From NCBI GenBank assembly GCA_963834385.1, contig CAWIBO010000005.1:352001-416000 (forward strand): a DNA stretch of 64,000 nucleotides, in the 5' to 3' direction. This DNA comes from an uncultured Verrucomicrobiae bacterium. GTDB lineage: Bacteria > Verrucomicrobiota > Verrucomicrobiia > Chthoniobacterales > UBA10450. Positions within the stretch are counted from its first letter, which is position 1. Each line of letters starts with the position of its first letter. Both the position numbers and the translations under genes were made by a program. The notes beneath the pieces are model-generated. The model did not search any database, was not told where the DNA came from, and saw only the letters and a list, made by a program, of their open reading frames with translations. This document shows positions 27,063 to 41,575 of this stretch, piece by piece.

Positions 27063-27996
27063 CTACCGCCCCGGCGCCAGCCGTTCCTGCAACAAAACAT
27101 TTGCCCCGCTTTTCACCCGCCGCACAACCTCCACCGGTCGCCCGGCTCTTCCCGTCTCCCGCACAACCAGCTCATCGCCTTCCATCCGGGCAAACCCTGG
27201 ACCAACCTCAACGAGCGCAGGCCGCGCCGCCGCCATGACGGCAAGCGCGTCGAAGACCGGTCCGCCCTCGAGGCCGAGCCACTTCGTCCAGAACCAGAGC
27301 CAGAACCCACTGCGTTTCGCGACAAACCGGCTTCCCGCCCGGTCGTTGGTCAGCATGGCTTCGCGCGTCCCGGGGCGCAGACGCAGACCGGCCGCCACCT
27401 CGATCGGAACCAGCAGCAACCGCGCGGGCCCGGCCAGGACGCGGCCCGCCGCCGCCGGATCCTTCACCACATTGGCGTCGCTGATGGTGACATGGCGGGT
27501 CCGGCCAAAACGAAGAGCGTCGGAAGGCCGTCGTCCGCCGAGAAAGATCACGCGCCGCAACCGGCGCGCGCTTTCGGGATGCTGCGCCTGGAACGCCGCC
27601 AGGTTGGTCAAGGGACCGAGGGCGATGTAGGTGAGGTTTGTTTCCTTTTCGAGCGCCCGCGCCAGGGCGCGGCTGGCCGGACTCGGGTCGAACCGGCCCG
27701 GCCCGGCTGCTCCCTCGTAAACCGGCACCTTCTCCGCCCGGGCGGCCCGGCGCAGTTCTTCCATGACAGCGCCCGTGCGCGCGAGCGAAGCGTTTCCGTA
27801 GGTGGTGCTGATTCCCACCAGGCGAAGCTCGGGACTGTGCCGGGCCAGCAGAAAGGCAAAGGCATCGTCCACCTCCCGCCAGGGAGCCCCGAGCGAGGGA
27901 TCCATGTCGAGCCAGACCGCGGTGGACGCATCCAAGGCCCGGGCACCGGCGAAAAACAAAAGGAACAGGGTCGCCGGGAGGGAAAGAGCTTTCCAA
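27063..27996 (-). CDS. Nucleoside hydrolase (inosine/uridine-preferring family), probably with a signal peptide; start uncertain
   Basis: DMDP...VDDAFA, GISTTYGN, ALGPLTNLA, DANVVKDPAAA, VFDALAV; KALSLPATLFLLFFAGARA signal-like segment. Confidence 0.85.
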
Positions 27997-28047
27997 GGGC
28001 AGGTGAGACGAACAAAATTGGGGCGGCCAAGCCTGGAGAACGAACTG

Positions 28048-28776
28048 ATGCGCATACTGAAGATTCTATTGTTGACCGTGATGACCCTGGCGGCCACCGC
28101 GGAGAGCCGGGCCGCGGACGCGCCCTGGACGGAAACCTACGCCGACCTCTTGAAGCGTTACGTCACGCCGGAGGGAAACGTCCGTTACCAGGCCTGGAAA
28201 GCGAACGGCGCCGATCTCCGCCGTCTTAATCAGGTGGTGCAGGGGATCGCCGGGGCCGACCTGGGCCGGATGAACCGCGCCGAGCAGCTCGCCTTTTACC
28301 TGAACGCCTACAACGCCTGGATTCTGCATGAAGCGCTCGAGAAATATCCGACCAAGTCGGTGAAAGACCTTCTCTTCACCTTTTTCCTGAGCAACCGGCT
28401 GACCGTGGCGGGGGAGAAGATGAGTTTTAATCGGCTGGAGAAGGATATCATCCGCCGGAAATTTGATGAGCCGCTGATCCATTTTGCGCTCAACTGCGCC
28501 AGCCAAAGCTGCCCGCCGCTGCTGGACGAGCCTTACCGGGCCGGGAACCTCAAAGCCACCATGGAAAAGCAGACGCGCGCCTTTGTGAACTCGCCGCGGG
28601 GCGTGGTGGTCGATGGGAAAACCGCGCGGCTCTCGAAGATTTTCGATTGGTACAAGGAGGACTTTCCCAAGGGTGACGTGCTGGGCTTCGTTAACAAATG
28701 GCGGAACAAACCGATTCCGGCCGGGGCGAAGATCGAATACCAGGATTACGACTGGGGCTTGAACGCGGCCCGCTAG
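28048..28776 (+). CDS. Exported DUF547 domain protein
   Basis: Signal peptide; LAFYLNAYNA, IHFALNCASQSCPPL, LSKIFDWYKEDF, YDWGLN. Confidence 0.92.
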   Translation: MRILKILLLTVMTLAATAESRAADAPWTETYADLLKRYVTPEGNVRYQAWKANGADLRRLNQVVQGIAGADLGRMNRAEQLAFYLNAYNAWILHEALEKYPTKSVKDLLFTFFLSNRLTVAGEKMSFNRLEKDIIRRKFDEPLIHFALNCASQSCPPLLDEPYRAGNLKATMEKQTRAFVNSPRGVVVDGKTARLSKIFDWYKEDFPKGDVLGFVNKWRNKPIPAGAKIEYQDYDWGLNAAR

Positions 28777-28781
28777 AAATC

Positions 28782-30227
28782 ATGGTCGCCCTGGTGGACA
28801 CGAGCACGGAGAGACGGCCGCATTGGCGGGCGCGCTGGCATGCCTTTCGGCATCCGATTCATGAGGAAAAGGCAAAGGTCCTGCGGGAGCGCTGGGAAAC
28901 GTTGCCGGCTGAGCTGCGCACGCCGAACCAGATTTCCGGGCGTCACCTGACGCATTGCGGGTTCACCCTGGGCGCGAGCTATTGTTCCTTTCATTGCACT
29001 CATTGTTATCTGCCGAAGAACGCGAACGAGATTCCGATCCCGTCGCTGGAGCAGGTGAAGGAGCAGATCGACGCCAACCGCCGTTTGCAGGGGCCGGGGG
29101 GCGGACTGCAAATCACGGGGGGCGATGTCGCCGACGCTTATTGGAAGAGTGGGCGGGGCGATGAACTGATCGAGATCGTGCGCTACGCCTACTCGGTCGG
29201 ATCGATCCCGATGCTGATGACGCACGGGCAGACGTTGCTCGAGCAACCGCAGTTCCTCGAGCGCCTCGTGGTGGAGGCCGGGCTGCGGCAGATCTCGGTG
29301 CACGTCGACATGACCCAGGCCGGGCGTCATGGCTATCCGATCGGACGGATCAAGTGCGAGGCCGATCTGCATCCGGTGCGCCAGGCTTTCACCGACCTGG
29401 CGCGCGACATCCGGAAGCGCACCGGTTTCCCGCTCGAGTATGCGCTGAGCTTCACCGTCACCCGGCGGAACATTGACGATGTGCCGGAAGTCATCCGCTG
29501 GTATCTGGCCGACCCGGAACGGTCGCTCATCTGGCGCATGCTCAGTTTCCAGCCCGAAGCCGACACCGGGCGGACGATTTTTTCGCAGCGTCCCATCACC
29601 GCGGCCGATGTCTGGGAGAAGATCTGCGAAGGCGTGGGCCTGCCTTTGCGCCGTGACGTTTCGATCTTCGGGCATCCCGATTGCAACAGTTGGGCCTCGC
29701 TCATGGTGGCGCGGCCGTCGGGCGCGATCCTGCCGCTGCTGCCCGATGACAAAAAGTTTGATGTGATTCTTGGCGAGGTGCTCGAGCGGATCGGCGGACT
29801 TTCCCTGGTGAACGATGATGCCGGCACGCCGCCTTACCGCCTGGCCGGGGTCCTGTTCCAGAACCCGCTCCTGGCGCTCCGCCTGGCCGGTCGGTTGCTC
29901 GGTTATTTCACTTCACGCAAGGCGCCGCCCGAGATTCTGCGCTCGATCCTGCGCGGCCGGGTGCATACCCTCGGCGTCGGCATGCATAATTTCATGGGCG
30001 CGGAACAAGTGGCACGGGCGGGGAGCGATCCCGTGATCAAGGCGCGGCTTGATTCCTGTGTCTTCAAGGGAGCGGTCAAGCGCGACGGCAAATGGGAGGC
30101 CGTCCCGATGTGTTCCATGAACCAGCAGACCTGGTCCGAGGTTTACGACGAACGGCTGCGCGACCCCGAGCTTCTCCAGCAGTCGCAGGTCAACCGGCCC
30201 CAGGTCGCCGCCGCGGCGGCGGATTGA
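28782..30227 (+). CDS. Radical SAM enzyme of unknown function with extra C-terminal Cys residues (COG1964-like)
   Basis: CSFHCTHC (CxxxCxxC), ITGGD, THG; GHPDC, RLDSC, VPMCSMN. Confidence 0.85.
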   Translation: MVALVDTSTERRPHWRARWHAFRHPIHEEKAKVLRERWETLPAELRTPNQISGRHLTHCGFTLGASYCSFHCTHCYLPKNANEIPIPSLEQVKEQIDANRRLQGPGGGLQITGGDVADAYWKSGRGDELIEIVRYAYSVGSIPMLMTHGQTLLEQPQFLERLVVEAGLRQISVHVDMTQAGRHGYPIGRIKCEADLHPVRQAFTDLARDIRKRTGFPLEYALSFTVTRRNIDDVPEVIRWYLADPERSLIWRMLSFQPEADTGRTIFSQRPITAADVWEKICEGVGLPLRRDVSIFGHPDCNSWASLMVARPSGAILPLLPDDKKFDVILGEVLERIGGLSLVNDDAGTPPYRLAGVLFQNPLLALRLAGRLLGYFTSRKAPPEILRSILRGRVHTLGVGMHNFMGAEQVARAGSDPVIKARLDSCVFKGAVKRDGKWEAVPMCSMNQQTWSEVYDERLRDPELLQQSQVNRPQVAAAAAD

Positions 30228-30234
30228 TTCCGCT

Positions 30235-30984
30235 GTGGCCTCGACCGCACCGGAGCACGAGGCGGGGCCGCGCGTCAGCGTGATCATTCCGGCCTGGGGC
30301 GACTCGGTCAGCCTGGCCGCCATTTTACCGACGCTCGAGGCGTTGCCTTTGCACGAGATCATCGTGGTGGATGTCTGTGCCGACACGGCGGACTGCCGGC
30401 TTCCGGGCGGCGGACGGGCCCGGTTGATCTGCACCTGTTCGCCGAGCCGGGGCCGGCAGATGAACCTTGGCGCGGCGGCCGCCGAAGGCGATGTGCTTGT
30501 TTTTCAGCACGCCGACACCCTTTTCTCGAGGGAACATTTGTCGGCGCTGAAGGCGGCCCTGCGCGACAACGCCTCGATCATCGGCGGCGCCTTTCATCGC
30601 CGGTTTGATGGGCGCCATCCGCGGCTGCGCTGGCTGGAGAAAGTGGCGCGTTTCCTTTCCCGGCATGGCGGCACCCTCTTTGGAGATCAGACCGTGTTTG
30701 TCCGGCGCGAGGTGTTTCAGCGGTTACACGGGTTTGCCGAGATCCCGCTGATGGAAGATGTGGAGTTTTCCCGGCGCCTGCGCGCCGCCGGACGGGTGGT
30801 GGTGCTCGATCCGCCCGTGGAAACATCGCCCCGCCATCACCAGGAGAACGGCGCCTGGCGCACCAGCATTCGGAACGGCCTTTTCCTCCTCCTCTTCCGT
30901 CTCGGCGTCTCAGCCGAACGATTGCACGCATGGTATTACCGTCGCCCGCGGCCGGATGTGGGCGCGGCGCCCGTCGGCGCGTGA
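30235..30984 (+). CDS. GT2 glycosyltransferase, TIGR04283 type (arsenosugar-cluster associated)
   Basis: VSVIIPA, RGRQMNLGA, FQHADT, FGDQTVFVRR, IPLMEDVEFSRRL, TSPR. Confidence 0.85.
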   Translation: MASTAPEHEAGPRVSVIIPAWGDSVSLAAILPTLEALPLHEIIVVDVCADTADCRLPGGGRARLICTCSPSRGRQMNLGAAAAEGDVLVFQHADTLFSREHLSALKAALRDNASIIGGAFHRRFDGRHPRLRWLEKVARFLSRHGGTLFGDQTVFVRREVFQRLHGFAEIPLMEDVEFSRRLRAAGRVVVLDPPVETSPRHHQENGAWRTSIRNGLFLLLFRLGVSAERLHAWYYRRPRPDVGAAPVGA

Positions 30985-30998
30985 GGGGCGGGAATGAA

Positions 30999-31229
30999 GG
31001 GGCGTGAATCGTAAATCGTGAATCGTGAATAGTGGGGAGCTCCCCCGGTAGGGCGACGCTCCGCGGAGCCTGAGAGCACGCGCCGCCAGCTAACCGGAGG
31101 GACGAGCTTCCGCTCGTCCATGGACCTGCGGAAGCAGGTCCCTCCGTAAGAAAAATCCCCCTATCTCAGTGCCCTCTGTGTCCTCCGTGGTAAATCCCTC
31201 CGCGCCCTCTGCGCCTCTGCGGTAAAAAC
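30999..31229 (-). repeat. Composite modular repeat, copy 1 (downstream of arsS)
   Basis: Read on minus: CGCAGAGG/CACAGAGG module, GGAG-REP doublet, GTAG-REP, (ATTCACG)n. Confidence 0.85.
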
Positions 31230-32189
31230 TCAGAGAAGCGCCCCGCCGCAGCTCGACCCCGCGCCCGCAGTGCACCCGAAACAATGTTCGCCGGTCTGGA
31301 TCTCACGCTCTTCCACCGTCTCCGGATCGATCTCCCAGAGATGCAGACCGCGGTCGCCGTCACGCCACTGCATCTTCAGCATCTGATTGAAATCGCAATC
31401 AAAGACCTCGCCCTGCCAGCTCACGTTGATGGTGTTCCGGCACATCAGCCCCTCGACCGTCGCCGGGTTGAAGGCGTCGTTCAGGAGCAACATGTAATCG
31501 GCCAGCTGCCCGTTGTTCTTCAACCAGGAAGCAAAACGCGAGACCGGGAGGTTCGTGATGGTGAAGAGCTTGTTGAAGACGATCCCGAAATGTTCCTGCA
31601 ACTCCCGTTTGTAATCGGCTTCCAGCTCCGCCTGCGGCCCGGGCAGGAACGCGCCGTTCGGGTTGTAAACCAGATGGAGCGGGAGCCGCGGGTCGGTCCC
31701 GTAACCGAGGCTGTTCAGAAGCTGCAATCCCTTGATGCTGCCGTCGAAAACGCCTTCCCCGCGCTGGGCGTTCACGTTCTCGGGCGAATAACAGGGCATC
31801 GAGGCAATGACCTCGATCTCGTGCTCCGCGAGGAACTGCGCGTAATCCTCAAAACCGGGCTCAACCAGGATGGTGAGGTTGCAGCGGTCGATGATGTGCC
31901 GCGGCGGCGTCAGCGCTTTGAGGCGGCGCACCAAATATTTGAAGTCGGGAATCATCTCCGGCGCGCCCCCGGTCAGGTCGACCGTCGGAATGTCGGTCCG
32001 CTCCAGCCAGTCAATGATGCGATCAACCGTCTCGCGGGTCATGATCTCCTTCCGCTTCGGCCCGGCGTTCACGTGGCAATGGATGCAGGTCAGGTTGCAA
32101 AGCTTGCCGACATTGACCTGTAAAATCTCGGTGCGGGCGTGGCGCAAGGTGAGCTGATGCTCGAGCAGCCTGTGGGAAAAACGGTTCAT
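31230..32189 (-). CDS. arsS: Arsenosugar biosynthesis radical SAM enzyme ArsS (with DUF3641 C-terminus)
   Basis: LQVNVGKLCNLTCIHCHV, DLTGGAPE, IDRCNLTIL, ASMPCY, LMCR, DCDFNQML, HCFGCTAGAGSSCGG. Confidence 0.92.
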   Translation of the reverse strand: MNRFSHRLLEHQLTLRHARTEILQVNVGKLCNLTCIHCHVNAGPKRKEIMTRETVDRIIDWLERTDIPTVDLTGGAPEMIPDFKYLVRRLKALTPPRHIIDRCNLTILVEPGFEDYAQFLAEHEIEVIASMPCYSPENVNAQRGEGVFDGSIKGLQLLNSLGYGTDPRLPLHLVYNPNGAFLPGPQAELEADYKRELQEHFGIVFNKLFTITNLPVSRFASWLKNNGQLADYMLLLNDAFNPATVEGLMCRNTINVSWQGEVFDCDFNQMLKMQWRDGDRGLHLWEIDPETVEEREIQTGEHCFGCTAGAGSSCGGALL

Positions 32190-33308
32190 GACGGACGGGT
32201 GCCCCAGAAGATCAGGCCGCCGAGGAGCGCGGCGCAGGGGAGAGTGACAATCCACGAAAGAACGATGTTCCGGATCACGGCGGGATGCGCGCGCCCGGTG
32301 ACGAGGCCGATGCCGAAGAGCGAGCCGACCGAGACATGGGTCGTGGAAACCGGGAGACCGAAAAGGCTGGCGGAGACCACGAGGCAGGCGGTTGAGAGGT
32401 TGGCCGAGAAACCCTGGCCATGGTTCATGCCGGTGACCCGCCGGCTCATGGTGTGGGCGACCTTGCGCGCGTGGAGCAGGCCGCCGACGGCCATGGCGCC
32501 GGCGATGGCGAGAAAGGCGTAACGCAGCTCGAGCCCCTGCCAGAGCAAGAGGAGCGCGGCGATCTTCGGGGTATCGTTCAGGCCCCGGGCAAAGCTGACC
32601 ACGCCTGCGCTGCCAAAGTGCGCCGCGTCCATGGCCTGCTGCGCGCCCAGGCCGAGAAAAGAGCCGGCGTAACGTTCCTGGCAGTTCTCCTGTTCATCGA
32701 CGGTGAGGGAGAGCGGAGGCGCCGGCGTTTGAAACGAAAGAAGCGAGGCAGGCTGCGCCATGGCGACGACCCGTTGTTCCGAGCCCAGACAGACGCACCA
32801 TTCCTTGCCGATGCCGGTCAGGAGCCGGGTGGTGCGGAAGAGGAAATAGATCAGCGCGCCGAGAAGAAGGGCGGCGAGCGGGCTCAGGAGCAGCGGGAGA
32901 ACAAAGCCCTGGCCGAGCGCGGAAAAGTTGAGGGCCGGGCCGACCGCGACCAGTCCGCAGCCGACGATCGCACCGGTCAGGGCGTGGGTGGTGGAAATGG
33001 GAAAACCGGTGCCGGTGGCCAGGATGACCGTCAGCCCGGCGCCGAGAGCGACCGCGAGCACGAAGTATTCCGATCCGACCACCGCCTCCGGCACGAGGCC
33101 TTTGCCGCTGAACTTTTTCAGGAGCGCCTGGGCGAGGAAAATGGAAGCGAGCGAGCCGGCGAAGGTGGTGACGGTGGCCCAGGAGAGGGCGGTGCGATAA
33201 CCGCAGGTGCGGCTGCCGTAGAGGGAGGCCACGCCCTTGAAGTTGTCGTTGGCGCCGTTGCTGTAAGCCAGGAAACAGGTGGCAAGGAAAGAGGCCGGCC
33301 AGGAGCAT
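32186..33308 (-). CDS. Inorganic phosphate transporter (PiT family), frameshift near 33285
   Basis: NGANDNFKG, PISTTHAL, GLNDTPK, PVSTTHVS; N-terminus MLLAGLF in another frame. Confidence 0.88.
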
Positions 33309-33311
33309 CGC

Positions 33312-34190
33312 TCAGGCCCGGTAGGCGCCCTTGAAGAAGAGCCGGTAGACCGCGCCGCCAGCCAGTCCGCCCACCAAAGGTGCGATGATGTAAACCGTGA
33401 GCCAGCCCGCGCCGTTGACGCGGAACGGCACCGAACCCCAGCCGGCCAGGGCGGAAAAGAGACGGGGACCGAAATCACGCGCGGGATTAAGGGCGGCCAT
33501 GGTGAGCGGCCCGAAAAGCGAGATCAACAGGGTAAGGGTGAGCCCGATGGTGGCCGCGGTCAGGATCTGCGGGCGGGTGGCGTTCCGCTCGTCGGTCACG
33601 CAAAAAATCACCAGGACAAGGATGGCCGTGCCGACAACCTCCGCGCCAAAGGCCTGGGCCGAGGTGATCAGGAGGGGCGTGGCCGCGGCGATCGGTTTGC
33701 CGCCCGGGTTCGGGAAGTATTCGCCGAAGACCATGGCGGTGGCCTCGCTCCCGGGTCCGCCGCGCACGATGTCGTTCTTCGCCTCGTAAGCGGCGAGAGC
33801 GTTGTTGAAGATGGCGTAGAGCAGGGCGGCGGCGACAAACGCCCCGAGCAATTGGACCACGACGTAGGGAAGGACAAGGCGCTTCGGGAATCGCGCCCAG
33901 ACCGCCGCCGCGACCGTCACGGCCGGGTTGAAATGCGCGCTGCTGAGCGATCCCGTCAGGTAAATCGCCGTGGCCAGGCCGAGACCCCAGACAATCGCCA
34001 CCTGGAAAATGCCGACCTGCGCCCCGGTGGTGACGGCGGTGCAAAGGCTGCCGCAGCCGAAGAAAACGAGCAGGAACGTTCCGAAAAACTCACCAACAGC
34101 CCATTTCGGGATGCGGGCCTGGGCTACGGCGACGTCGGCGGAAGGATGCGGGGGCGGTTCGGGGCGGGTGGCGCGGATGGTATCGCTCAT
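33312..34190 (-). CDS. MIP family channel, GlpF-type aquaglyceroporin
   Basis: AHFNPAVT and ALNPARDFGPR (NPARD is the glyceroporin signature). Confidence 0.92.
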   Translation of the reverse strand: MSDTIRATRPEPPPHPSADVAVAQARIPKWAVGEFFGTFLLVFFGCGSLCTAVTTGAQVGIFQVAIVWGLGLATAIYLTGSLSSAHFNPAVTVAAAVWARFPKRLVLPYVVVQLLGAFVAAALLYAIFNNALAAYEAKNDIVRGGPGSEATAMVFGEYFPNPGGKPIAAATPLLITSAQAFGAEVVGTAILVLVIFCVTDERNATRPQILTAATIGLTLTLLISLFGPLTMAALNPARDFGPRLFSALAGWGSVPFRVNGAGWLTVYIIAPLVGGLAGGAVYRLFFKGAYRA

Positions 34191-34200
34191 GGCTCTGGTT

Positions 34201-35358
34201 TTAGCAGCAGGCGCCGCCGTCGCAACAACTGCTGTTGGCCTCGGTCGTCACCTTGTAATCCTGCCCCTTGGTTTCCTTCGGATGCCGACGCGCCGTGCGC
34301 GAGCAATCAAACGGCTTGGCCTCGTCCGCGGGCACGGGGTTGATCGGATCGATAAACTCGAAGAACTCCCGGTAAGGCGCCTTGCGGTAGAGGTTGTAAG
34401 TCTTGTCGCAGACGGCGTAACGGCCGCCACGTTCCATCCGGTGATTATCGTCGTCGAGCACCTCGCGGAACGGTCCCTTGTAAATGACCGCCTGGTTCCG
34501 TTCGACGCACGGGCCCTGTTTGCCCTTGAAAGCCTCGATCGTGACCGAGCGGAACTCGATGCCTTCGACCGTCTGCCACGGTTCCCCGTCGCGTTTCAGG
34601 ATCTGGATGCCGTAGAAGCCGGCCTCGCTGAAGGCCTGCAGGAAACCTTCCTCGGTGAGCGCGCCGGAGATGCAGCCGCTCCAGAGGGTGGGATCGTTCT
34701 GGAGATGTGCCGGGACTTCCTCGTCGCACACGATATCCGAGATGACGGCGCGGCCGCCGATGCGCAGGACCCGGAAAATTTCCTGGAAAAGCTGCTGTTT
34801 GGCCGTGGCTTCGACGAGGTTAAGGACACAGTTGGAGACCACCACATCGACCGATTCATTGGCCACGAGCGGATGTTTGACCCGAAGATCCTGGGCGAGC
34901 TCATCGGCGCGGAGGAACGAAGCGGCATCGGTGATCGGGCGCGCCTTCAGTTCCTCGTCGAGACGTTCCAGGTCGAGGGCCAGATCCTGGATCCGGCCTT
35001 TGCGGAACTCGACGTTCCCGTAACCGATCGCCTTGGCCACGGTGGGAGCGTTCCGGCGCGCCACTTCGAGCATGTCATCGGTCATGTCCACCCCGATGAC
35101 CCGGCCCTCGGGGCCGACCACCTGGGCGGCGATGAAACAGATCTTGCCGGTACCGCTCCCGAGATCGAGCACCGTCTCGCCCGGTTGGAGGTAACGGGAA
35201 GGATCGCCGCAGCCATAATCGCGCTCGATCACCTCCTGCGGGATGACCTTGAGAAACTGGGGATCGTAATCGACCGGGCAACAGAGCTGGCTTTCGCGGG
35301 CCTGCGCCCCGGCGGCATAACGTTCGCGAACAGCGGTTTCAGTATTGATCGTTTTCAT
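34201..35358 (-). CDS. arsM: Arsenite S-adenosylmethionine methyltransferase-like protein (long form)
   Basis: LCCP, RDYGCGDP, LDLGSGTG, SNCVLNL, LWSGCISGA; C-terminal SSCCDGGACC; operon with arsS. Confidence 0.85.
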   Translation of the reverse strand: MKTINTETAVRERYAAGAQARESQLCCPVDYDPQFLKVIPQEVIERDYGCGDPSRYLQPGETVLDLGSGTGKICFIAAQVVGPEGRVIGVDMTDDMLEVARRNAPTVAKAIGYGNVEFRKGRIQDLALDLERLDEELKARPITDAASFLRADELAQDLRVKHPLVANESVDVVVSNCVLNLVEATAKQQLFQEIFRVLRIGGRAVISDIVCDEEVPAHLQNDPTLWSGCISGALTEEGFLQAFSEAGFYGIQILKRDGEPWQTVEGIEFRSVTIEAFKGKQGPCVERNQAVIYKGPFREVLDDDNHRMERGGRYAVCDKTYNLYRKAPYREFFEFIDPINPVPADEAKPFDCSRTARRHPKETKGQDYKVTTEANSSCCDGGACC

Positions 35359-35650: not shown

Positions 35651-35835
35651 CGCGAGCGCCCGCTCGCGCGCCTTTCCCGCTTGTCAGCCGAGAAAGCCCC
35701 GGCTAAAACCGAGCCGCCATGGATCGGGTGAAACCGACGCAGGGAACCGGGGCGCAACCGCAATGAACGCAATGATCGCGTCTTATACTGCGCAATAATT
35801 CGGTCCACTTCTCGTTAGCCTTAACGCACCTCTCC

Positions 35836-36373
35836 ATGCACAGCGCGTTCCTTGACTTTCCACGCGAGCGCACCGAGTTCAGCGACACAAACTACGCTAT
35901 AGTAGGACGCGCTCTTGCCTATGCCACTTCGTTCGAGGCCAGTCTGTCGTGCGTTGAGCAGTCTTCAGCACATTCGTCAGCGAGTCCGAGAGCTGGCCTC
36001 GTCTATCCAAGACGCAGATGAGGCGTTTGCGACTGCCGTCGCGGAGGTATGGGACCAGAGATTACGTCGGCACGCCACACGCATCTTGGAGTATCACGAG
36101 TTTCCGTCCGACATAGCGGACACGGTCAAGCGAGCTAAGTCAGCCAGAAACGAGATCGCGCATGAGATCGCTCTCGGCATTTCCGATACCGTTGAGACCG
36201 ACGCCGGCCGCTACGAACTTTTGTCTATACTATCTCGCCTTGTGCACAGCGTTGCCGAGGGCCATATCGTCGTCGAGCTTACGTCACTCAGCGAGACACA
36301 TAAGTCGTTTCCGACACCACAATTCCTGTCTTCTTATCCCCTACGGATTGTCGAGTGGGTTGCCCAACCATAA
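35836..36373 (+). CDS. Hypothetical protein, putative integron cassette 1 (frameshift near 35945)
   Basis: Joins ORFs 35836..36021 and 35915..36373; lower GC; preceded by GTTAGCC and followed by ATCTAAC. Confidence 0.6.
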
Positions 36374-36381
36374 CGAATGAG

Positions 36382-36421
36382 ATCTAACCAAGAGCTGCAA
36401 CCGAACTGGTTGTCGTTAGGC
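36382..36421 (+). mobile_element. Internally deleted attC site
   Basis: R'' ATCTAAC (36382-88) and R' GTTAGGC (36415-21) only 40 bp end to end; L' box missing. Confidence 0.65.
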
Positions 36422-36438
36422 GTTTTAGCACGCGTCCC

Positions 36439-37197
36439 GTGAAACCCGTCTCAAACGACAAATCCTCTCTGCCGCTCTTTACTCCTGCGCATGGTTTTTG
36501 TGCGTGCGGTTGCGGACGCCCGACAAAGATTATTGCCGGTAGGCACCTCAAATATTTCAGCGTCAAGCATCATCCGAAGTATCCGAACTGTCGACCCAAG
36601 CATCGCTGGATTCTACAGCGACCGCCTAGCCCGCCTCCCGCCTCGTCGCCGACCCCGGAGCCGCGACCCAAAGGGATGCGTGGGCCCATGCCGCGAACCC
36701 CCAAGGCACCCCCCATTCCACCACCAGCGCGAGGGAGCGCGCCTCAAGCGACTAATGATCGGCTTGCAGCGTTGGTTCACCGTATGCAATCCAACCCTGA
36801 ATTCGTCACCGAGCAGCGTCGGTGGCTTGGGGCCAATCAGGCCGGATCGGCACGGAAGTATTTTGCCGAACGCCGAAAGAATGATCCGAACTTCAAACTT
36901 CTGCAAAACCTCCGAGGACGGATCAACGCCGCACTCAAAGGTACCGGCAAGAGCAAGCGTACAATGCATCTAGTCGGGTGCTCAATCGCCGAACTGAAAG
37001 TGCATCTCGAAAAGCAGTTCACTCCCGGAATGAGGTGGTCGAACTACGGTGAGTGGCACGTTGACCATGTCGTGCCATGCCGTTCATTCGACCTTCGTCG
37101 CGCTGACGATCAACACCGCTGTTTTCATTTTACCAATCTCCAGCCGCTTTGGGCCGATGACAATTTTAAGAAGAGCGGCAAACACCCAAATGCCTAA
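36439..37197 (+). CDS. HNH/endonuclease VII-like protein of phage type, integron cassette 2
   Basis: N-terminal CACGCG; LRGRINAALKG...GCSIAELKVHLEKQF...WHVDHVVPC...CFHFTNLQPLWADDN; stop codon lies inside the R'' box. Confidence 0.8.
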   Translation: MKPVSNDKSSLPLFTPAHGFCACGCGRPTKIIAGRHLKYFSVKHHPKYPNCRPKHRWILQRPPSPPPASSPTPEPRPKGMRGPMPRTPKAPPIPPPARGSAPQATNDRLAALVHRMQSNPEFVTEQRRWLGANQAGSARKYFAERRKNDPNFKLLQNLRGRINAALKGTGKSKRTMHLVGCSIAELKVHLEKQFTPGMRWSNYGEWHVDHVVPCRSFDLRRADDQHRCFHFTNLQPLWADDNFKKSGKHPNA

Positions 37198-37351
37198 CCA
37201 ATCGATGGAGCTGACCGCGAGCCGCTCTGCGATCACACTTTCCATGATTCCAACCCCAGCAGTGTTTGCGACGCGCGCTCCCACGCCCGCATCGCTACGC
37301 GAAGCCTTGCGGGCAGGTCGTCCGCCGTCGCTCATCTTGTTCTCGTTAGAT
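37192..37351 (+). mobile_element. Integron attC recombination site
   Basis: R'' GCCTAAC, L'' GATGGAGC, L' GCTCATC (one extrahelical G), R' GTTAGAT; R'' is the exact complement of the cassette start G|TTAGGC at 36415. Confidence 0.85.
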
Positions 37352-37382
37352 CGCAATTCCAACACCGCACCAACCCCACCTC

Positions 37383-37625
37383 ATGATTGATGCCTACACA
37401 AAGTTCGTTCTCACCATCATAGCCATCTCGCTCCTCATCATTGCCGGCCGCGATTTGACTCTCATTCCCCAAGCTCACGCGCAAACAGACAGTGACGACC
37501 TTCTCGATATCAGAGCGTCGAAATCGGCGATCCAAGTCGACATCGTTTCTGTTGCTGGTAGGAGATTTTCGCCCCATGAACGTCGGTCTACCGGCGCGCC
37601 TCCCTGTTATTGGCGACGATCATGA
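37383..37625 (+). CDS. Small exported hypothetical protein (cassette-borne)
   Basis: MIDAYTKFVLTIIAISLLIIA...PQAHAQ signal-like; starts ~30 bp after attC. Confidence 0.55.
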   Translation: MIDAYTKFVLTIIAISLLIIAGRDLTLIPQAHAQTDSDDLLDIRASKSAIQVDIVSVAGRRFSPHERRSTGAPPCYWRRS

Positions 37626-37855
37626 TTAGCAGCTATTACATCGTGCGTGTCGCACGCGTGGATTCGAGGCGTCCCATTCCCGGCGAGTTTCTGGCCTTTC
37701 TTCGCAGCCAGTCCCACTTTCACGAGCTTACTGATACGGACTTCGTCTTTGCAGCGCCGAACGACACACTGGGACTGCGGGAAAAGATCAACACACTTTT
37801 GGGAACTGCGGGGAAGGCAGAAGTCAATGCCATCACATTCGATTCTCGGCCCTAA
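37622..37855 (+). CDS. Small hypothetical protein
   Basis: ATGA overlap with the previous gene; globular-looking composition. Confidence 0.5.
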   Translation: MISSYYIVRVARVDSRRPIPGEFLAFLRSQSHFHELTDTDFVFAAPNDTLGLREKINTLLGTAGKAEVNAITFDSRP

Positions 37856-38069
37856 GCGATTTAACCCATACGAAGAGTGTGAGCGGCTAATTTGGGAAAT
37901 TAGTGATTAGGATGGCGTGTTGGTAGACGTGATCTTTGAAATGCGGTCCCTGCGCTGCACCTGATCAGGAGCAAGGCTGTAATTCACGCTTTCCGTGCCT
38001 GCCATCGTGTATTTATGCTGCGTGGCAGGCACTGAAGCTCACCAGCTGACCTTGTGTCGCATTGAACAC

Positions 38070-38638
38070 ATGCTAGACAAGATTACGCGTCTACTCAGTG
38101 GCGAGTGTCTTCTCGCGCGACGCCCCAATGGAGGAGGCGTTATTCTTGCTCGCTCCATATACGTTTCGGTCATTGTCTACGCGGTGTCACTGATCATTAA
38201 AAGCGGAACAGAACCTGAAGCTATGTTGTCGTTCTCGTTCGCCGAGCTGAAGCGGAACATCAATGAGACTATTCCTTGGGTCGGAACAATCTTTGCCGGC
38301 GTGTATGCGGCTCTCTATACTCGTTATTCCAGCCAGTGGTCCTACCTGGTATCGCTCGGTACAACGAGCTTATGGCGGCAAAAGTGTCTGCCACCCAAGA
38401 CGCCGACCACGTCAACCGCGCCCTAGTAGACTGGCAAGCGGGGTTCGTCTCGGATGCATACACCCTACACTTAGACCGAAAGCCCCTTTTCAGGGGGGTG
38501 ATCGACCACCTTCTGACCAATGAGCAAGTTAAGGCGGAGACTCTAAAAAACTTCGATGGCGAGGACCTTGAGGAGTTTAAGCGTAGACATTTCCCGCAAG
38601 GCGTAGAAACGGACGCGCCTGATCGCCGCGCTGATTAA
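38070..38638 (+). CDS. Hypothetical membrane protein with two TM helices (frameshift near 38355)
   Basis: Joins ORFs 37995..38426 and 38276..38638 at SSQWSYL/ARYNELM. Confidence 0.55.
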
Positions 38639-38682
38639 CTCCGGCGTTCGGAAAAGCGAAGTCTCGCATCGGCGCGAAATCA

Positions 38683-38890
38683 GTGCCAGGCTATCCGCGT
38701 AAAGGCGAAGTTCACTACTGGAAGGAGACTGACGGGCGCTACCTTGGCTATCTCGACGCTTATCCTGATCACTGGACACAAGGTGATGATTTGGAGGACC
38801 TGAGGAAGCATCTCAAGGATCTGTTCGAGACCTTCGGCGCAGAGGACATTCCCGGAATCAAAAAGGAAGAAGAGCTTGAGGTGGCGTTAA
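38683..38890 (+). CDS. HicB-like antitoxin, apparently orphaned; stop codon apparently lost
   Basis: YWKETDGRYLGYLDAYPDHWTQGDDLEDLRKHLKDL...GIKKEEELEVA. Confidence 0.65.
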
Positions 38891-38987
38891 GCGACTTTCT
38901 GGGTGCGGTCGGCCGGGGCTGCCTACCCATTCTCCTGGAGGGCTTCTACCCTTGCTCGGAAAGGAAATGCCACTAAAGTGACACTGT

Positions 38988-39245
38988 ATGAGGACCGAGC
39001 TCGTCACCACCCTGAAGCGCAAGGCTACCGAAATCATCGCTGAGCTGGAAGCAAGCGAGGATCCGGTGCTCATTACGCAGCACGGCAAGCCTGCGGCATA
39101 TCTTATGGCGGTGGACGCCTTTGATGTTCTCAAGCGCCGCCTCGGCATTCTGGAGGGCATCGCTCGCGGCGAACGGGCCCTTGGGGAGGGCCGCGTTGCT
39201 ACCCACGCGGAAGCCAAGAAACGCATGGCGCGATGGCTGCGGTAA
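38988..39245 (+). CDS. Phd/YefM family antitoxin
   Basis: LVTTLKRKATEII, PVLITQHGKPAAYL. Confidence 0.9.
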   Translation: MRTELVTTLKRKATEIIAELEASEDPVLITQHGKPAAYLMAVDAFDVLKRRLGILEGIARGERALGEGRVATHAEAKKRMARWLR

Positions 39246-39556
39246 TCTGGACTGAGCCGGCTCTCCAAGATCTCGACACCATCGCCGATTATATCGCGCT
39301 TGATGACCCGCAGGCGGCGCGAGGTCTTGTTCAACGAGTGTTTCAGCGTGTCGCGCAACTGGTGGGGCAACCCGAGAGCGGTTCACGCCCGCCTGAGATG
39401 CGCAGGTCACGTTACCGTCAACTGGTCGAACCGCCCTGCCGCGTTTTCTACCGCTACGACGGCGCGCAGGTCTTCATCCTTTATGTCATGCGCGGTGAGA
39501 AACGTTTCCGGAAGTCCCGCCTCACCAAGCGGGACCGCGGCAATCAAAACGTCTAG
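39233..39556 (+). CDS. RelE/ParE family toxin
   Basis: VIWTEPALQDLDTIADYIALDDPQAA, PESG, YRQLVEPPCRVFYR; overlaps the antitoxin. Confidence 0.9.
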   Translation: MAAVIWTEPALQDLDTIADYIALDDPQAARGLVQRVFQRVAQLVGQPESGSRPPEMRRSRYRQLVEPPCRVFYRYDGAQVFILYVMRGEKRFRKSRLTKRDRGNQNV

Positions 39557-39666
39557 TCATGCCGCGCGGAAGCTTCCTAGGGACGGTTTTTGCAGGAACG
39601 GAGTTTCTTTCCCACGGGCGTAGTCTGATAGGGTCGCACGGTGAGCTGTTTCACCGCGCACGCCCG

Positions 39667-40449
39667 ATGATCACAACCCCGTCCTGTCATCCGGCGCCGT
39701 CTCTTGTTCCGGAGCAGCGGGCTGCGCCGGCTCGGTGCAAAGTCAGCATCGTGGTTCCGGTCTGGAACGAGGCGGGCCTGATCGGAACGTTTTTGCGGCA
39801 CCTGCGCCGTCGCGCGCCCAGCGCGGAGATCGTGGTGGTGGACGGCGGGAGCACAGACGGGACAAGGGAATTGGCGCGCCTCTGGTGTGATCGTCTCCTG
39901 GTGGTCGAGCGCGGCCGGGGCCGGCAGCTCAATGCCGGGGCGGCCGCTGCGCGCGGGGAGGTGCTTTGGTTTTTGCATGCGGATTCCCAGGTGCCGCCGT
40001 CGCCGCTGCGGGAGATCGAGAAGGTGCTGGCCGATCCAAGGCTGTCGTGGGCGGCTACTTCCGTATCGCGCTTCCGCGCACCCGGGTCGTTTATCGGCTG
40101 ACCGATTCCCTGGCGCATTACGCCGGGCTCCTCCTCCGGATCCGGTGCGGCGATCATGGTTTCTTTTGCCGGCGGGAACTGTTCGACGCCGTGGGCGGGT
40201 TTCCCGAGGTGCCGCTTATGGAAGATGTGGAGTTCTTTCGCGCCCTGCACCGATTTGGGCAGGTGAAAGCGGTCGGCGCCCGCCTGCTCATCAGCCCGCG
40301 CCGGTATGAACAGGTGGGTCGGTGGCGTTTGACTTGCGCCTATGGGTTGATCGCCACGCTCTATGCCCTCGGGGCGCCACTTGGCGTTCCTGCAACGGAT
40401 CTATGCCCGGACCTGCGAACCGGCTGCCCGCCCGCCCGCGCAAGGTTAG
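39667..40449 (+). CDS. Second TIGR04283-type GT2 glycosyltransferase (frameshifts near 40040 and 40380)
   Basis: VSIVVPVWNE, VDGGSTD, GRGRQLNAGA, FLHADS / CGDHGFF, VPLMEDVEF, ISPRRY. Confidence 0.8.
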
Positions 40450-40465
40450 GATTTGCTCTGTCTTT

Positions 40466-41575
40466 TTAGGCCGCCCCCAGGTTCGAGGGGAGCGTTTTCA
40501 CCGGGGGCAACACATCGCGGAAGGTTGTGCCGTAGATGTCCCAAACGGTCAGGAAAAGTCCGCAGACGATCGGTCCGACAATGAACCCGATCGGGCCGAA
40601 AAGGAAAAGGCCGCCGAGGGTGCCGACGAGGATGAGGAGGTCGGGCATCTTGGCGTCTTTCCCAACGAGGGTCGGCCGGAGGATGTTGTCCACCGTGCCG
40701 ACCACCGCGACGCACCAGGAGGCGAGCAGGATGGCGGCGAGTGTTTGTCCGGTGAGGAAAAGATAGATCACCGCCGGGATCCAGACCAGGGCCGACCCGA
40801 TCCCGGGCACGACGGAGAGCACGGCCATGATCGTGCCCCAAAAAGCGGCCCCGCCAATGCCCGCGACCCAAAAGCCGAGCCCTGCCAGGCCGCCCTGGAT
40901 GATGCCGATGACGATCGTGCCCTTGATGGTCGCGCGCGTGACCGAGGCGAGCTGCTCCAGGACGCGCACCTCGTCCTCATGACTTAACGGTGTGTAATAG
41001 AAAATCTTCCGGAGGATCATGCGACCATCGCGCAGGAAGAAAAACATCGCGTAAAGCATGACGAAGAAATTGAGGATGAAGGTGGCGGTCCCGGCGGTCA
41101 TGCGGGAGACGCCTGTGACGAGAAAGGCGCCGGTCGATTTGGCGACGGCCCCGAGGTTCTCGAGGATCTGTTCCTGGCTCGGCACGTATTCGGCGAGGGC
41201 GGGGAACCGCTGCACGGCCCAATCGTGCATGTCGAGGGTGCGGACCGCGCCGAAATGCTGTTGCAGCCAGGGAATGGCTTCGTTGCTGATGGCGAGCGCC
41301 TGGTTCACCACCACGCCAACAAAGGCGCTGATCGGCCCGACGATGAGGATGAAGAGAAAAAAGAGCGTGATGCCGGCGGCGAGAGAGGAGCGCCCGCCCA
41401 GCTTCGCCACGATCCAGCGGTAAAGGGGGTAGGAAAGCCCGGCGAACATGGCCCCCAAAACGAGCGGCTGCAGGAACGGCCAGGTGACCGCGAGAAACAT
41501 CCCGGAGACCGCGGCCACCAGGAGGAGGACGAAGCCGCTGCGAAAAGCGCTCTGGCTGATTTTCGACTGCTCCAT
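40466..41575 (-). CDS. AI-2E family transporter
   Basis: FFFLRDG, VPGIGSALVWIP, VDNILRPTLVG, GGLFLFGPIGFIVGP. Confidence 0.9.
   Translation of the reverse strand: MEQSKISQSAFRSGFVLLLVAAVSGMFLAVTWPFLQPLVLGAMFAGLSYPLYRWIVAKLGGRSSLAAGITLFFLFILIVGPISAFVGVVVNQALAISNEAIPWLQQHFGAVRTLDMHDWAVQRFPALAEYVPSQEQILENLGAVAKSTGAFLVTGVSRMTAGTATFILNFFVMLYAMFFFLRDGRMILRKIFYYTPLSHEDEVRVLEQLASVTRATIKGTIVIGIIQGGLAGLGFWVAGIGGAAFWGTIMAVLSVVPGIGSALVWIPAVIYLFLTGQTLAAILLASWCVAVVGTVDNILRPTLVGKDAKMPDLLILVGTLGGLFLFGPIGFIVGPIVCGLFLTVWDIYGTTFRDVLPPVKTLPSNLGAA

What the first reader, a model, noticed from the sequence alone, without database searches (positions are those of the whole stretch)
27063..35358. Expanded organoarsenical (arsenosugar-type) biosynthetic gene cluster in a soil Verrucomicrobium
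Seen: a tight minus-strand operon arsM-like methyltransferase, GlpF-type MIP, PiT transporter and arsS converges on a tight plus-strand operon DUF547, second radical SAM and TIGR04283 GT2; a nucleoside hydrolase is divergent from DUF547. Established: ArsM methylates As(III), and ArsS adenosylates dimethylarsenite to 5'-deoxy-5'-dimethylarsinoyl-adenosine, the first arsenosugar intermediate, known from cyanobacteria. DUF547 and TIGR04283 are recurrent ArsS neighbours, and the later pathway steps are poorly defined. Inference: this locus carries candidates for those steps (deadenylation, glycosylation, a further radical step) plus dedicated uptake, so it may make an undescribed arsenic natural product or arsenolipid.
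Basis: partly seen in the sequence, partly recalled or inferred. Interest (0 to 1): 0.88.

Follow-up and report, generated by a model that had tools for sequence, protein, structure and literature searches.

The report
Arsenic cluster with tetraether-synthase-like enzyme
A soil bacterium carries the two known starting enzymes of arsenic-sugar synthesis beside an unstudied relative of the archaeal tetraether-lipid synthase, a sugar transferase and a nucleoside hydrolase, which together likely build an arsenic-containing membrane lipid by a route nobody has yet worked out.

Summary
All eight genes are real. ArsS and the TIGR04283 transferase pass their curated cut-offs. The PiT gene has a frame break near its start, probably an assembly error. 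The 'second radical SAM' is no ArsS variant: its model matches the archaeal tetraether synthase Tes/GDGT-MAS (Z 30; next family 17) and keeps predicted ligands of its reactive auxiliary cluster. In 140 family genomes it co-occurs with the hydrolase (49/64 vs 3/76) and ArsM (56/64 vs 25/76), but not with ArsS itself (48/64 vs 61/76), because an unnamed radical SAM enzyme seems to stand in for ArsS (16 of 31 ArsS-less genomes; 13 of 13 with ArsM). The genes are usually scattered: only 12 of 64 are linked as here. One-strand operons exist in two relatives and on a Cupriavidus plasmid, where MTA phosphorylase stands in the hydrolase's place. Best reading (0.45): an arsenosugar-lipid pathway with a radical step on the lipid tail; nothing after ArsS is shown.

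The parts
27063..28055 (-). Nucleoside hydrolase (IU-NH family), distinct subfamily with a 7-residue insert in the N-terminal Asp motif, Phe-Asp in place of His-Asp, and a signal-peptide-like N-terminus; start uncertain
   Evidence: PF01156 124 bits; below all named NCBIfam hydrolases; alignment to solved hydrolases; hydrophobic stretch before the motif in 8 of 8 verrucomicrobial homologues examined, 0 of 2 distant ones
28048..28776 (+). DUF547 protein, predicted exported; invariant NAYN, His and Cys-x4-Cys-Pro
   Evidence: PF04784 90 bits; alignment of 41; model pLDDT 95.5 with no clear fold match
28782..30227 (+). Unnamed radical SAM enzyme, 481 aa, structural relative of tetraether synthase Tes/GDGT-MAS; CxxxCxxC plus conserved C301, H402, C426, C444
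   Evidence: no NCBIfam model over cut-off
30235..30984 (+). TIGR04283 GT2-family transferase of the clade that accompanies the Tes-like enzyme
   Evidence: 193 bits vs 182; clade of 32 rows, SH-aLRT 100 in a quick tree; fused to the Tes-like enzyme in 5 proteins
31230..32189 (-). ArsS radical SAM arsenic adenosyltransferase
   Evidence: TIGR04167 441 bits vs 300; PF12345 190 bits
32186..33308 (-). PiT-family phosphate/arsenate transporter; frame break near 33290, likely an assembly error
   Evidence: PF01384 208 bits
33312..34190 (-). MIP channel with two NPA motifs; direction of arsenite flow unknown
   Evidence: TIGR00861 187 vs 171
34201..35358 (-). ArsM-type As(III) methyltransferase, long form with Cys-rich C-terminus
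   Evidence: best PDB matches are all arsenite methyltransferases, E 6e-35 to 8e-29; three conserved cysteines align, a Cys-Cys pair lies before the aligned part; below named cut-offs
39559..40469 (+). Second TIGR04283 transferase, split over two frames, 4 kb outside the finding
   Evidence: halves score 111 and 88 bits on model positions 1-106 and 100-213

Best explanation
The locus encodes ArsS and an ArsM-type methyltransferase together with a Tes-like radical SAM enzyme, a TIGR04283 transferase, a nucleoside hydrolase and DUF547, and it likely makes an arsenic-containing membrane lipid: an arsenoriboside head on a lipid whose tail is likely altered by radical chemistry. Steps: (1) arsenate would enter by PiT and be reduced by an ArsC encoded elsewhere, arsenite crossing by the MIP channel (inferred). 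(2) The methyltransferase would give dimethylarsenite (family knowledge; untested for this subfamily). (3) ArsS adenosylates it to DDMAA (shown for the family; membership met here). (4) The hydrolase would remove adenine (inferred). (5) The GT2, likely with the TIGR04282 protein encoded on contig C2, would put the arsenoribose on a glycerol-lipid acceptor (inferred). (6) The Tes-like enzyme would abstract hydrogen from an unactivated lipid carbon, hold the radical on its auxiliary Fe-S cluster and form a new bond there, a chain cross-link or a similar coupling (inferred from fold and motif). (7) Exported DUF547 would handle the product in the envelope (speculative).
For: Fold: model pLDDT 91 matches 7TOL at Z 30.0, rmsd 3.3, 353 residues; the next family (viperin) has Z 16.9; profile E 3.9e-25. 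C301, C426, C444 and H402 align with three cysteines and the labile Met439 ligand of the C-terminal cluster region (mapped by hand; Met439 from PMC9433317). Link to arsenic genes: ArsM in 56/64 genomes with the enzyme vs 25/76 without; within-genus test p 0.0015 over 7 genera; ArsS or its stand-in in 61/64. One-strand operons: G377, G452 (arsM-PiT-arsS-hydrolase-[desaturase-like]-GT-rSAM), G363 (arsM-MIP-arsS-GT-rSAM), Cupriavidus KK10 plasmid (PiT-arsM-AhpD-like-arsS-MerA-like-TVP38-GT2-TIGR04282-like-MTAP-rSAM-DUF547); Burkholderia thailandensis plasmid has arsS, the rSAM relative, DUF547, TIGR04283, TIGR04282 and MTAP within 15 kb. Hydrolase directly after arsS in G028, G367, G377, G378, G387, G452. 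GT clade in 15/15 genomes with the enzyme in the 60-genome panel; GT-rSAM fusions. Lipid-type neighbours of distant members: Lgt-family protein in 21 of 49 loci of 5 kb or more. Removal of adenine after DDMAA is the accepted next step, with no enzyme named in the passages read (10.64898/2026.04.29.721666; PMC10456119).
Against: No substrate or product is shown. Physical linkage is the minority: ArsS near the enzyme in 8 of 99 close loci and in 2 of 80 distant loci, the stand-in in 4 of 80 (only 35 of these loci reach 9 kb). 8 of 64 genomes with the enzyme have no match to this ArsM, and 3 (G019 95%, G381 94%, G438 94% complete) have neither ArsM, ArsS nor the stand-in. ArsS-type genes are so common in the family (64 of 76 genomes without the enzyme) that 61/64 says little. 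25 genomes have ArsM plus ArsS-type without the enzyme, and a cyanobacterial arsM-arsS cluster lacks it locally, so it is not needed for plain arsenosugar genes. The hydrolase here looks exported while ArsS is cytoplasmic. Distant members score higher on TrsS (function unknown to me) than on Tes. A shared fold does not show a lipid substrate. Kin are not independent: three genera hold 49 of the 64 positives.
Confidence: 0.45

Rival explanations
1. Two neighbouring but separate jobs: ArsM/ArsS make an ordinary arsenoriboside, while the Tes-like enzyme, DUF547, its GT clade and the hydrolase modify an arsenic-free envelope lipid or glycolipid.
For: The four-gene module is internally tighter (hydrolase phi 0.75; DUF547 adjacent in 84 of 99 loci; GT clade 15/15) than its tie to ArsM (phi 0.55). 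Most family members keep DUF547-rSAM between housekeeping genes (GT4, opcA-zwf). Three near-complete genomes have the enzyme with no arsenic gene found. Most distant loci show no arsenic gene.
Against: One-strand operons that interleave the two sets in two phyla; linkage in 8 genera of the family; within-genus co-variation with ArsM.
Confidence: 0.25
2. The Tes-like enzyme forms a carbon-arsenic bond itself: it activates the terminal carbon of a lipid chain and couples it to dimethylarsenite from ArsM, giving arsenic fatty acid or hydrocarbon type lipids in parallel with the ArsS branch.
For: It tracks ArsM more than ArsS. Tes activates terminal sp3 carbons through a cluster-sulfur adduct (PMC9433317). 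It lacks the rubredoxin and N-terminal cluster ligands of Tes, so its coupling partner may differ. Routes to these lipids are described as unknown (PMC11009773).
Against: The weak tie to ArsS is explained by a stand-in enzyme: all 81 ArsM-positive genomes have ArsS or the stand-in. It does not explain the fused GT or the hydrolase. No ArsL-like C-terminal cysteine motif for arsenic binding is seen.
Confidence: 0.14
3. The cluster makes a soluble, exported organoarsenical (an antibiotic-like or detoxification end product), the second radical SAM acting on the sugar or aglycone.
For: Exported-looking hydrolase and DUF547; transporters in the operon; precedents arsinothricin and bisenarsan (PMC8552651; PMC12159101).
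Against: The only close structural relative is a lipid enzyme; no exporter, regulator or Acr3 match in the locus (no Acr3 hit in the genome with one query); conserved chromosomal position and genome-average GC fit housekeeping more than a mobile biosynthetic cluster.
Confidence: 0.09
4. The set is misnamed: in these bacteria the main substrate is not arsenic (another metalloid or a thiol), and arsenosugar chemistry is a side reaction.
For: 41 of 109 ArsS genomes lack this ArsM; ArsS is present in 109 of 140 soil-type genomes; the methyltransferase passes no named ArsM cut-off.
Against: arsC, Acr3-like, MIP and PiT genes recur beside arsM-arsS; all PDB matches of the methyltransferase at E 1e-10 are arsenite methyltransferases.
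Confidence: 0.07

Closest known systems
Synechocystis ArsM-ArsS, first steps of oxo-arsenosugar synthesis (TIGR04167; Xue 2019 and Cheng 2021, seen only as cited in PMC8552651, PMC12159101, PMC13598754)
   Same: ArsS family member over cut-off, next to an arsenite methyltransferase relative.
   Different: Methyltransferase is of another subfamily (132/400 on NF038099). MIP and PiT sit inside the operon. A Tes-like enzyme, hydrolase, DUF547 and GT are attached; a Pseudanabaena arsM-arsS cluster has none of these within 9 kb.
NCBIfam 'arsenosugar biosynthesis' neighbourhood (TIGR04167, TIGR04282, TIGR04283, with DUF547, TVP38, MerA-like reductase)
   Same: ArsS, TIGR04283 and DUF547 in the locus; TIGR04282 and TVP38 elsewhere in the genome.
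   Different: The Tes-like enzyme and this hydrolase subfamily have no model over cut-off; no close MerA-like match in this genome (best 28%).
Tetraether synthase Tes / GDGT-MAS (MJ0619; PDB 7TOL, 7TOM; NF045702) and the related TrsS model NF045646
   Same: Whole-length fold (Z 30), radical SAM core, predicted C-terminal auxiliary cluster region.
   Different: 18-23% identity; no rubredoxin domain or N-terminal cluster cysteines; His where Tes has Met439; Tyr459 not kept; far below both cut-offs; bacterial, paired with DUF547 and a GT2.
Arsinothricin cluster arsQML (Burkholderia gladioli; PMC8552651)
   Same: Best HMM for the methyltransferase is NF040538 (349/500); a radical SAM plus methyltransferase plus transporter layout.
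   Different: The radical SAM enzymes here are ArsS and a Tes-like protein; no ArsL-type model was hit.

Membership tests
ArsS (TIGR04167) | Score above the curated cut-off | tested here: met
   441 vs 300 bits
ArsS (TIGR04167) | CxxxCxxC and C-terminal cysteines shared with annotated ArsS | tested here: met
   C31/35/38 and C250, C265, C303, C306, C314 align with Burkholderia and Pseudanabaena ArsS
ArsS (TIGR04167) | Forms DDMAA from dimethylarsenite and SAM | not testable with these tools
   reaction described in PMC13598754
ArsM arsenite methyltransferase | Score above a named ArsM model | tested here: not met
   349/500, 206/263, 132/400
ArsM arsenite methyltransferase | Conserved catalytic cysteines and closest solved relatives | tested here: met
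   YGCG, SNCV and SGC cysteines align with 4KW7; 5 of 5 PDB matches are arsenite methyltransferases
TIGR04283 transferase | Score above cut-off | tested here: met
   193 vs 182
Tes / GDGT-MAS (NF045702) | Score above cut-off | tested here: not met
   not listed at E 0.001 for the window protein; distant relatives 43-90 bits vs 450
Tes / GDGT-MAS (NF045702) | Overall fold | tested here: met
   Z 30.0, rmsd 3.3, 353 aligned; Foldseek E 2e-15
Tes / GDGT-MAS (NF045702) | Rubredoxin site and N-terminal Fe-S cluster ligands | tested here: not met
   one conserved Cys (C59) before CxxxCxxC; structural alignment starts at chain residue 59; Tes sites
Tes / GDGT-MAS (NF045702) | C-terminal auxiliary cluster with three Cys and labile Met439 | tested here: inconclusive
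   three conserved Cys align; His402 falls on Met439 (by hand); the passages read did not name the cysteine ligands; no coordinates inspected
Tes / GDGT-MAS (NF045702) | Binds and couples lipid tails | not testable with these tools
   needs protein
IU nucleoside hydrolase (PF01156) | Score and Asp-rich calcium motif | tested here: met
   124 vs 34 bits; DxD...DD and C-terminal Asp kept
IU nucleoside hydrolase (PF01156) | His before the C-terminal Asp | tested here: not met
   Phe (Trp in distant members) in its place; that an aromatic residue there marks purine-preferring hydrolases is recalled, not checked
Arsinothricin cluster | ArsL radical SAM with C-terminal CCxxC | tested here: not met
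   motif; absent from both radical SAM proteins

The most novel reading that the evidence does not exclude
Abundant soil Chthoniobacterales, and some Burkholderiales, use a tetraether-synthase-like radical SAM enzyme to build an undescribed arsenolipid, either by cross-linking the tail of an arsenosugar lipid or by welding dimethylarsenic directly onto a lipid carbon. A second, unnamed radical SAM family replaces ArsS in part of the lineage. That would give the first genes for arsenolipid formation beyond ArsS and two new carbon-arsenic or lipid-coupling enzymes.
Probability: 0.3. Interest if true: 0.88.

Novelty: new variant of a known kind. Interest (0 to 1): 0.66.

Why it matters
The steps after ArsS and the origin of arsenolipids are open; papers read here call the routes unknown (PMC11009773). 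Bacterial Tes relatives are also without function (PMC9433317; PMC8941075). This locus joins the two questions and names testable enzymes. ArsS is in 109 of 140 and ArsM in 81 of 140 genomes of this soil family, so complex organoarsenic synthesis could be common in soils. A cultured Cupriavidus strain carries the set as one operon, so the test does not depend on uncultured organisms.

Tried and rejected
1) Interim reading that the Tes-like module is independent of ArsS chemistry (phi -0.06): dropped when the stand-in enzyme was found in 13 of 16 such genomes. 2) Recent mobile island: rejected; GC 62-66% like the genome, and relatives keep arsS near pdxJ and the hydrolase near lpxI/ATP synthase, both of which flank the locus here. 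3) DUF547 fold search: no match (Foldseek best E 0.67; wide search best Z 5.5). 4) Complex prediction of the Tes-like enzyme with the GT was not available; no result. 5) Promoter scan: 0 sigma-70 sites, no informative terminator. 6) Sequencing runs: one DNA run with 6% of words, no RNA holder listed; its contigs did not cover the PiT break. 7) Xue et al. 2019 is not held; Cheng et al. 2021 was not looked up; both are known to me only through citing passages, so their text and supplements may already discuss neighbouring genes. 8) Ten paper searches: no listed title or abstract describes a Tes-like enzyme, DUF547 or a nucleoside hydrolase in arsenic clusters; the library lacks most subscription journals. 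PMC7826186, PMC12608789 and PMC13188914 were read as passages and added nothing on this. 9) rSAM-DUF547 fusions (P0167, P0264) keep a signal-like segment between the parts, so I give them little weight. 10) ESM Atlas returned only unnamed radical SAM clusters. 11) The careful GT tree did not finish; the quick tree was used. The FastTree of 96 radical SAM rows shows arsenic-linked copies on several branches, but no order of events was tested.
Full report
Observation. ArsS (441/300), the TIGR04283 transferase (193/182) and the MIP channel (187/171) pass curated cut-offs; DUF547, hydrolase and PiT pass Pfam. The methyltransferase passes no named ArsM model but matches only arsenite methyltransferases in the PDB and keeps their cysteines. 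The PiT gene has a frame break just after its start and a second TIGR04283 gene at 39559-40469 is split too. The assembly shows frame changes in 6 of 59 orthologous loci, so errors are likely but unproven. The host is a Chthoniobacterales-type verrucomicrobium by its closest named relatives; its genome is 89.6% complete.

The second radical SAM enzyme. It starts at 28782 (481 aa) and has no family model over cut-off. Its only PDB sequence match is GDGT-MAS/Tes (E 5e-4; profile E 3.9e-25). The AlphaFold model (32-row alignment, pLDDT 91.4) matches 7TOL at Z 30.0 over 353 residues, against Z 16.9 for the next family. Besides CxxxCxxC, C59, C301, C426, C444 and H402 are conserved in at least 90% of 32 rows. 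In the alignment, using a 20-residue tag offset that I inferred from the paper's numbering (PMC9433317, passages), H402 falls on Met439, the labile ligand of the cluster on which Tes parks its lipid radical, and the last three cysteines fall on Tes cysteines near 338, 455/456 and 470. The rubredoxin and N-terminal cluster ligands are missing. So it is not a Tes, but it likely works like one: hydrogen abstraction from an unactivated carbon, with the radical held on an auxiliary cluster. That it acts on a lipid is inference.

Neighbourhoods. In 99 loci of close homologues (19, 80, not de-duplicated) DUF547 was nearby in 84, a TIGR04283-like GT in 16, ArsM in 10, ArsS in 8, the hydrolase in 7 (51 loci had 8 kb on both sides: 44, 8, 6, 5, 4). 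Most sit between a GT4 gene and opcA-zwf. In 30 ArsS loci of relatives ArsM was nearby in 21, PiT in 9, MIP in 6, the Tes-like gene in 2. In 80 distant metagenomic loci (the best 80 of 353): DUF547 63, TVP38 15, MerA-like 11, GT 10, TIGR04282-like 7; hydrolase 5, ArsS 2, ArsM 2, stand-in enzyme 4; only 35 of the 80 reach 9 kb. The tie to DUF547 is thus near-constant and the physical tie to arsenic genes is a minority. It recurs, however, in different orders: one-strand arsM-PiT-arsS-hydrolase-GT-rSAM in G452 and, with a desaturase-like gene inserted, G377; arsM-MIP-arsS-GT-rSAM in G363; and PiT-arsM-AhpD-like-arsS-MerA-like-TVP38-GT2-TIGR04282-like-MTAP-rSAM-DUF547 on a Cupriavidus plasmid. 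A B. thailandensis plasmid has arsS, the rSAM relative, DUF547, TIGR04282, TIGR04283 and MTA phosphorylase; a Roseomonas plasmid has TIGR04282-DUF547-rSAM and the stand-in but no annotated arsS in the 36 kb viewed. That an adenine-releasing phosphorylase stands where the hydrolase stands here supports the deadenylation guess. Five proteins fuse a GT2 to the close rSAM family (two tested score 175 and 167 on TIGR04283, cut-off 182).

Whole-genome profiles. In 140 family genomes at least 90% complete (tallies in 86): Tes-like 64, ArsS 109, ArsM 81, hydrolase 52. Hydrolase: 49/64 with the Tes-like gene vs 3/76 without. ArsM: 56/64 vs 25/76. ArsS: 48/64 vs 61/76. Stratified by genus, the ties to ArsM and hydrolase hold (p 0.0015 each, over 7 and 5 informative genera) and that to ArsS does not (p 0.57); one genome per genus gives median phi 0.43, 0.83 and -0.13. 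Such tests overstate, as kin are not independent. Reading the coordinates by eye, 12 of the 64, in 8 genera, have the gene within about 10 kb of arsS or arsM; fragmented assemblies make this a lower bound. In the 60-genome panel all 15 genomes with the Tes-like gene have a member of the window GT's clade, against 7 of 45 without (quick tree; some low-scoring TIGR04283 hits were not in it). Across the phylum only 2 of 300 other genomes matched at E 1e-10. Unpublished genomes G007 and G429 are in the 140 panel (without them: hydrolase 48/62, ArsM 54/62), and G002, G007, G014 in the 60 panel; no operon cited above rests on them.

An ArsS stand-in. ArsM genes in ArsS-less genomes lie beside another unnamed radical SAM gene and a metallophosphoesterase (6 of 8 such loci fetched show the radical SAM gene, 7 the phosphoesterase). 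This enzyme is in 18 of 140 genomes: 16 of 31 without ArsS, 2 of 109 with it; all 81 ArsM genomes have one or the other; 61 of 64 Tes-like genomes do, as do 64 of 76 others. It is 23% identical to ArsS. Its C-terminal cysteines line up with those of ArsS in a six-row alignment, but pairwise BLAST aligns only the radical SAM core (E 2e-12), and its best model is Rv1681-like at 96/380. Replacement is therefore inferred from distribution and context, in four to five genera, not shown. It is absent from the window's genome with this query.

Other parts. The hydrolase has a signal-peptide-like start in 8 of 8 verrucomicrobial homologues examined and none in 2 distant ones; this is the main misfit with a simple cytoplasmic pathway. 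DUF547 looks exported and has no clear structural relative. The genome holds TIGR04282 (163/134), TVP38, MTAP and ArsC matches on contig C2, and no Acr3 match with one query, so the MIP may serve export as well as import.

What is known. ArsS makes DDMAA (PMC13598754, passages; PMC8552651, passages); adenine removal is assumed to follow (bioRxiv 10.64898/2026.04.29.721666, passages; PMC10456119, passages); arsenolipid routes are called unknown (PMC11009773, passages); bacterial Tes relatives lack assigned functions (PMC9433317 and PMC8941075, passages). The primary ArsS papers could not be read. NCBIfam already names ArsS, TIGR04282 and TIGR04283 as arsenosugar genes, so the neighbourhood is a known kind. 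My ten paper searches listed nothing on the Tes-like enzyme, this hydrolase or the stand-in in arsenic clusters. Earlier notes of this scan reached the Tes-like reading on other genomes; I saw them after and do not count them as support.

Verdict. A real, vertically kept gene set, here gathered in one place. New variant of a known kind. Best reading: arsenosugar-type lipid with a Tes-like radical step (0.45); separate modules 0.25; direct carbon-arsenic bond on a lipid 0.14; soluble product 0.09; non-arsenic substrate 0.07. Interest 0.66: it makes the open arsenolipid question testable in a cultured strain, but nothing beyond ArsS is demonstrated.

Noticed in passing
L303:6401-7348 (G400); L234:9739-10695 (G025); L233:11611-12588 (G004); L148:9179-10126: Unnamed radical SAM family, nearly mutually exclusive with ArsS (16 of 31 ArsS-less vs 2 of 109 ArsS genomes), in an operon with a TIGR04282-like gene, an FAD oxidoreductase and a metallophosphoesterase, often followed by arsM and MIP; candidate ArsS replacement.
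   Followed up: partly
L315:11967-22663 (NZ_CP073678.1, Cupriavidus sp. KK10): Stretch with no listed annotation in the collection carrying the whole set on one strand, with an ars cluster (MIP, two arsC) 4-6 kb further; best cultured test system.
   Followed up: partly
L202:2450-3154 and 20 other distant loci: An Lgt-family (diacylglyceryl transferase) gene lies beside DUF547 and the Tes-like gene in 21 of 49 distant loci of 5 kb or more, many of them near-identical.
   Followed up: no
L034, L035, L036, L037, L312, L313: A second, 60-67% identical clade of the Tes-like enzyme stands without DUF547 or GT next to it; several genomes carry both clades.
   Followed up: partly
window 39559-40469: Second TIGR04283 gene, split over two frames, close to the clade that sits near arsS and pdxJ in relatives.
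   Followed up: partly
window 19725-22062: Heavy-metal P-type ATPase-like gene split over two frames (seen; family recalled from motifs, not scanned).
   Followed up: no
window 35700-39560: Lower-GC stretch (0.55-0.59) right after arsM with a ParE toxin gene at 39233-39556 and short ORFs without family; looks like an insertion between the cluster and the second GT.
   Followed up: no
L290:8095-8865 and L291 (G000 contig C2): TIGR04282 gene with a TVP38 gene 7 kb away; the genome's arsC lies inside a phosphate-uptake region with a second PiT.
   Followed up: partly
L136:4441-5349; L294; L299; L300: A fatty-acid-hydroxylase/desaturase family gene recurs beside arsS and the GT genes in relatives, once inside the operon.
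   Followed up: no
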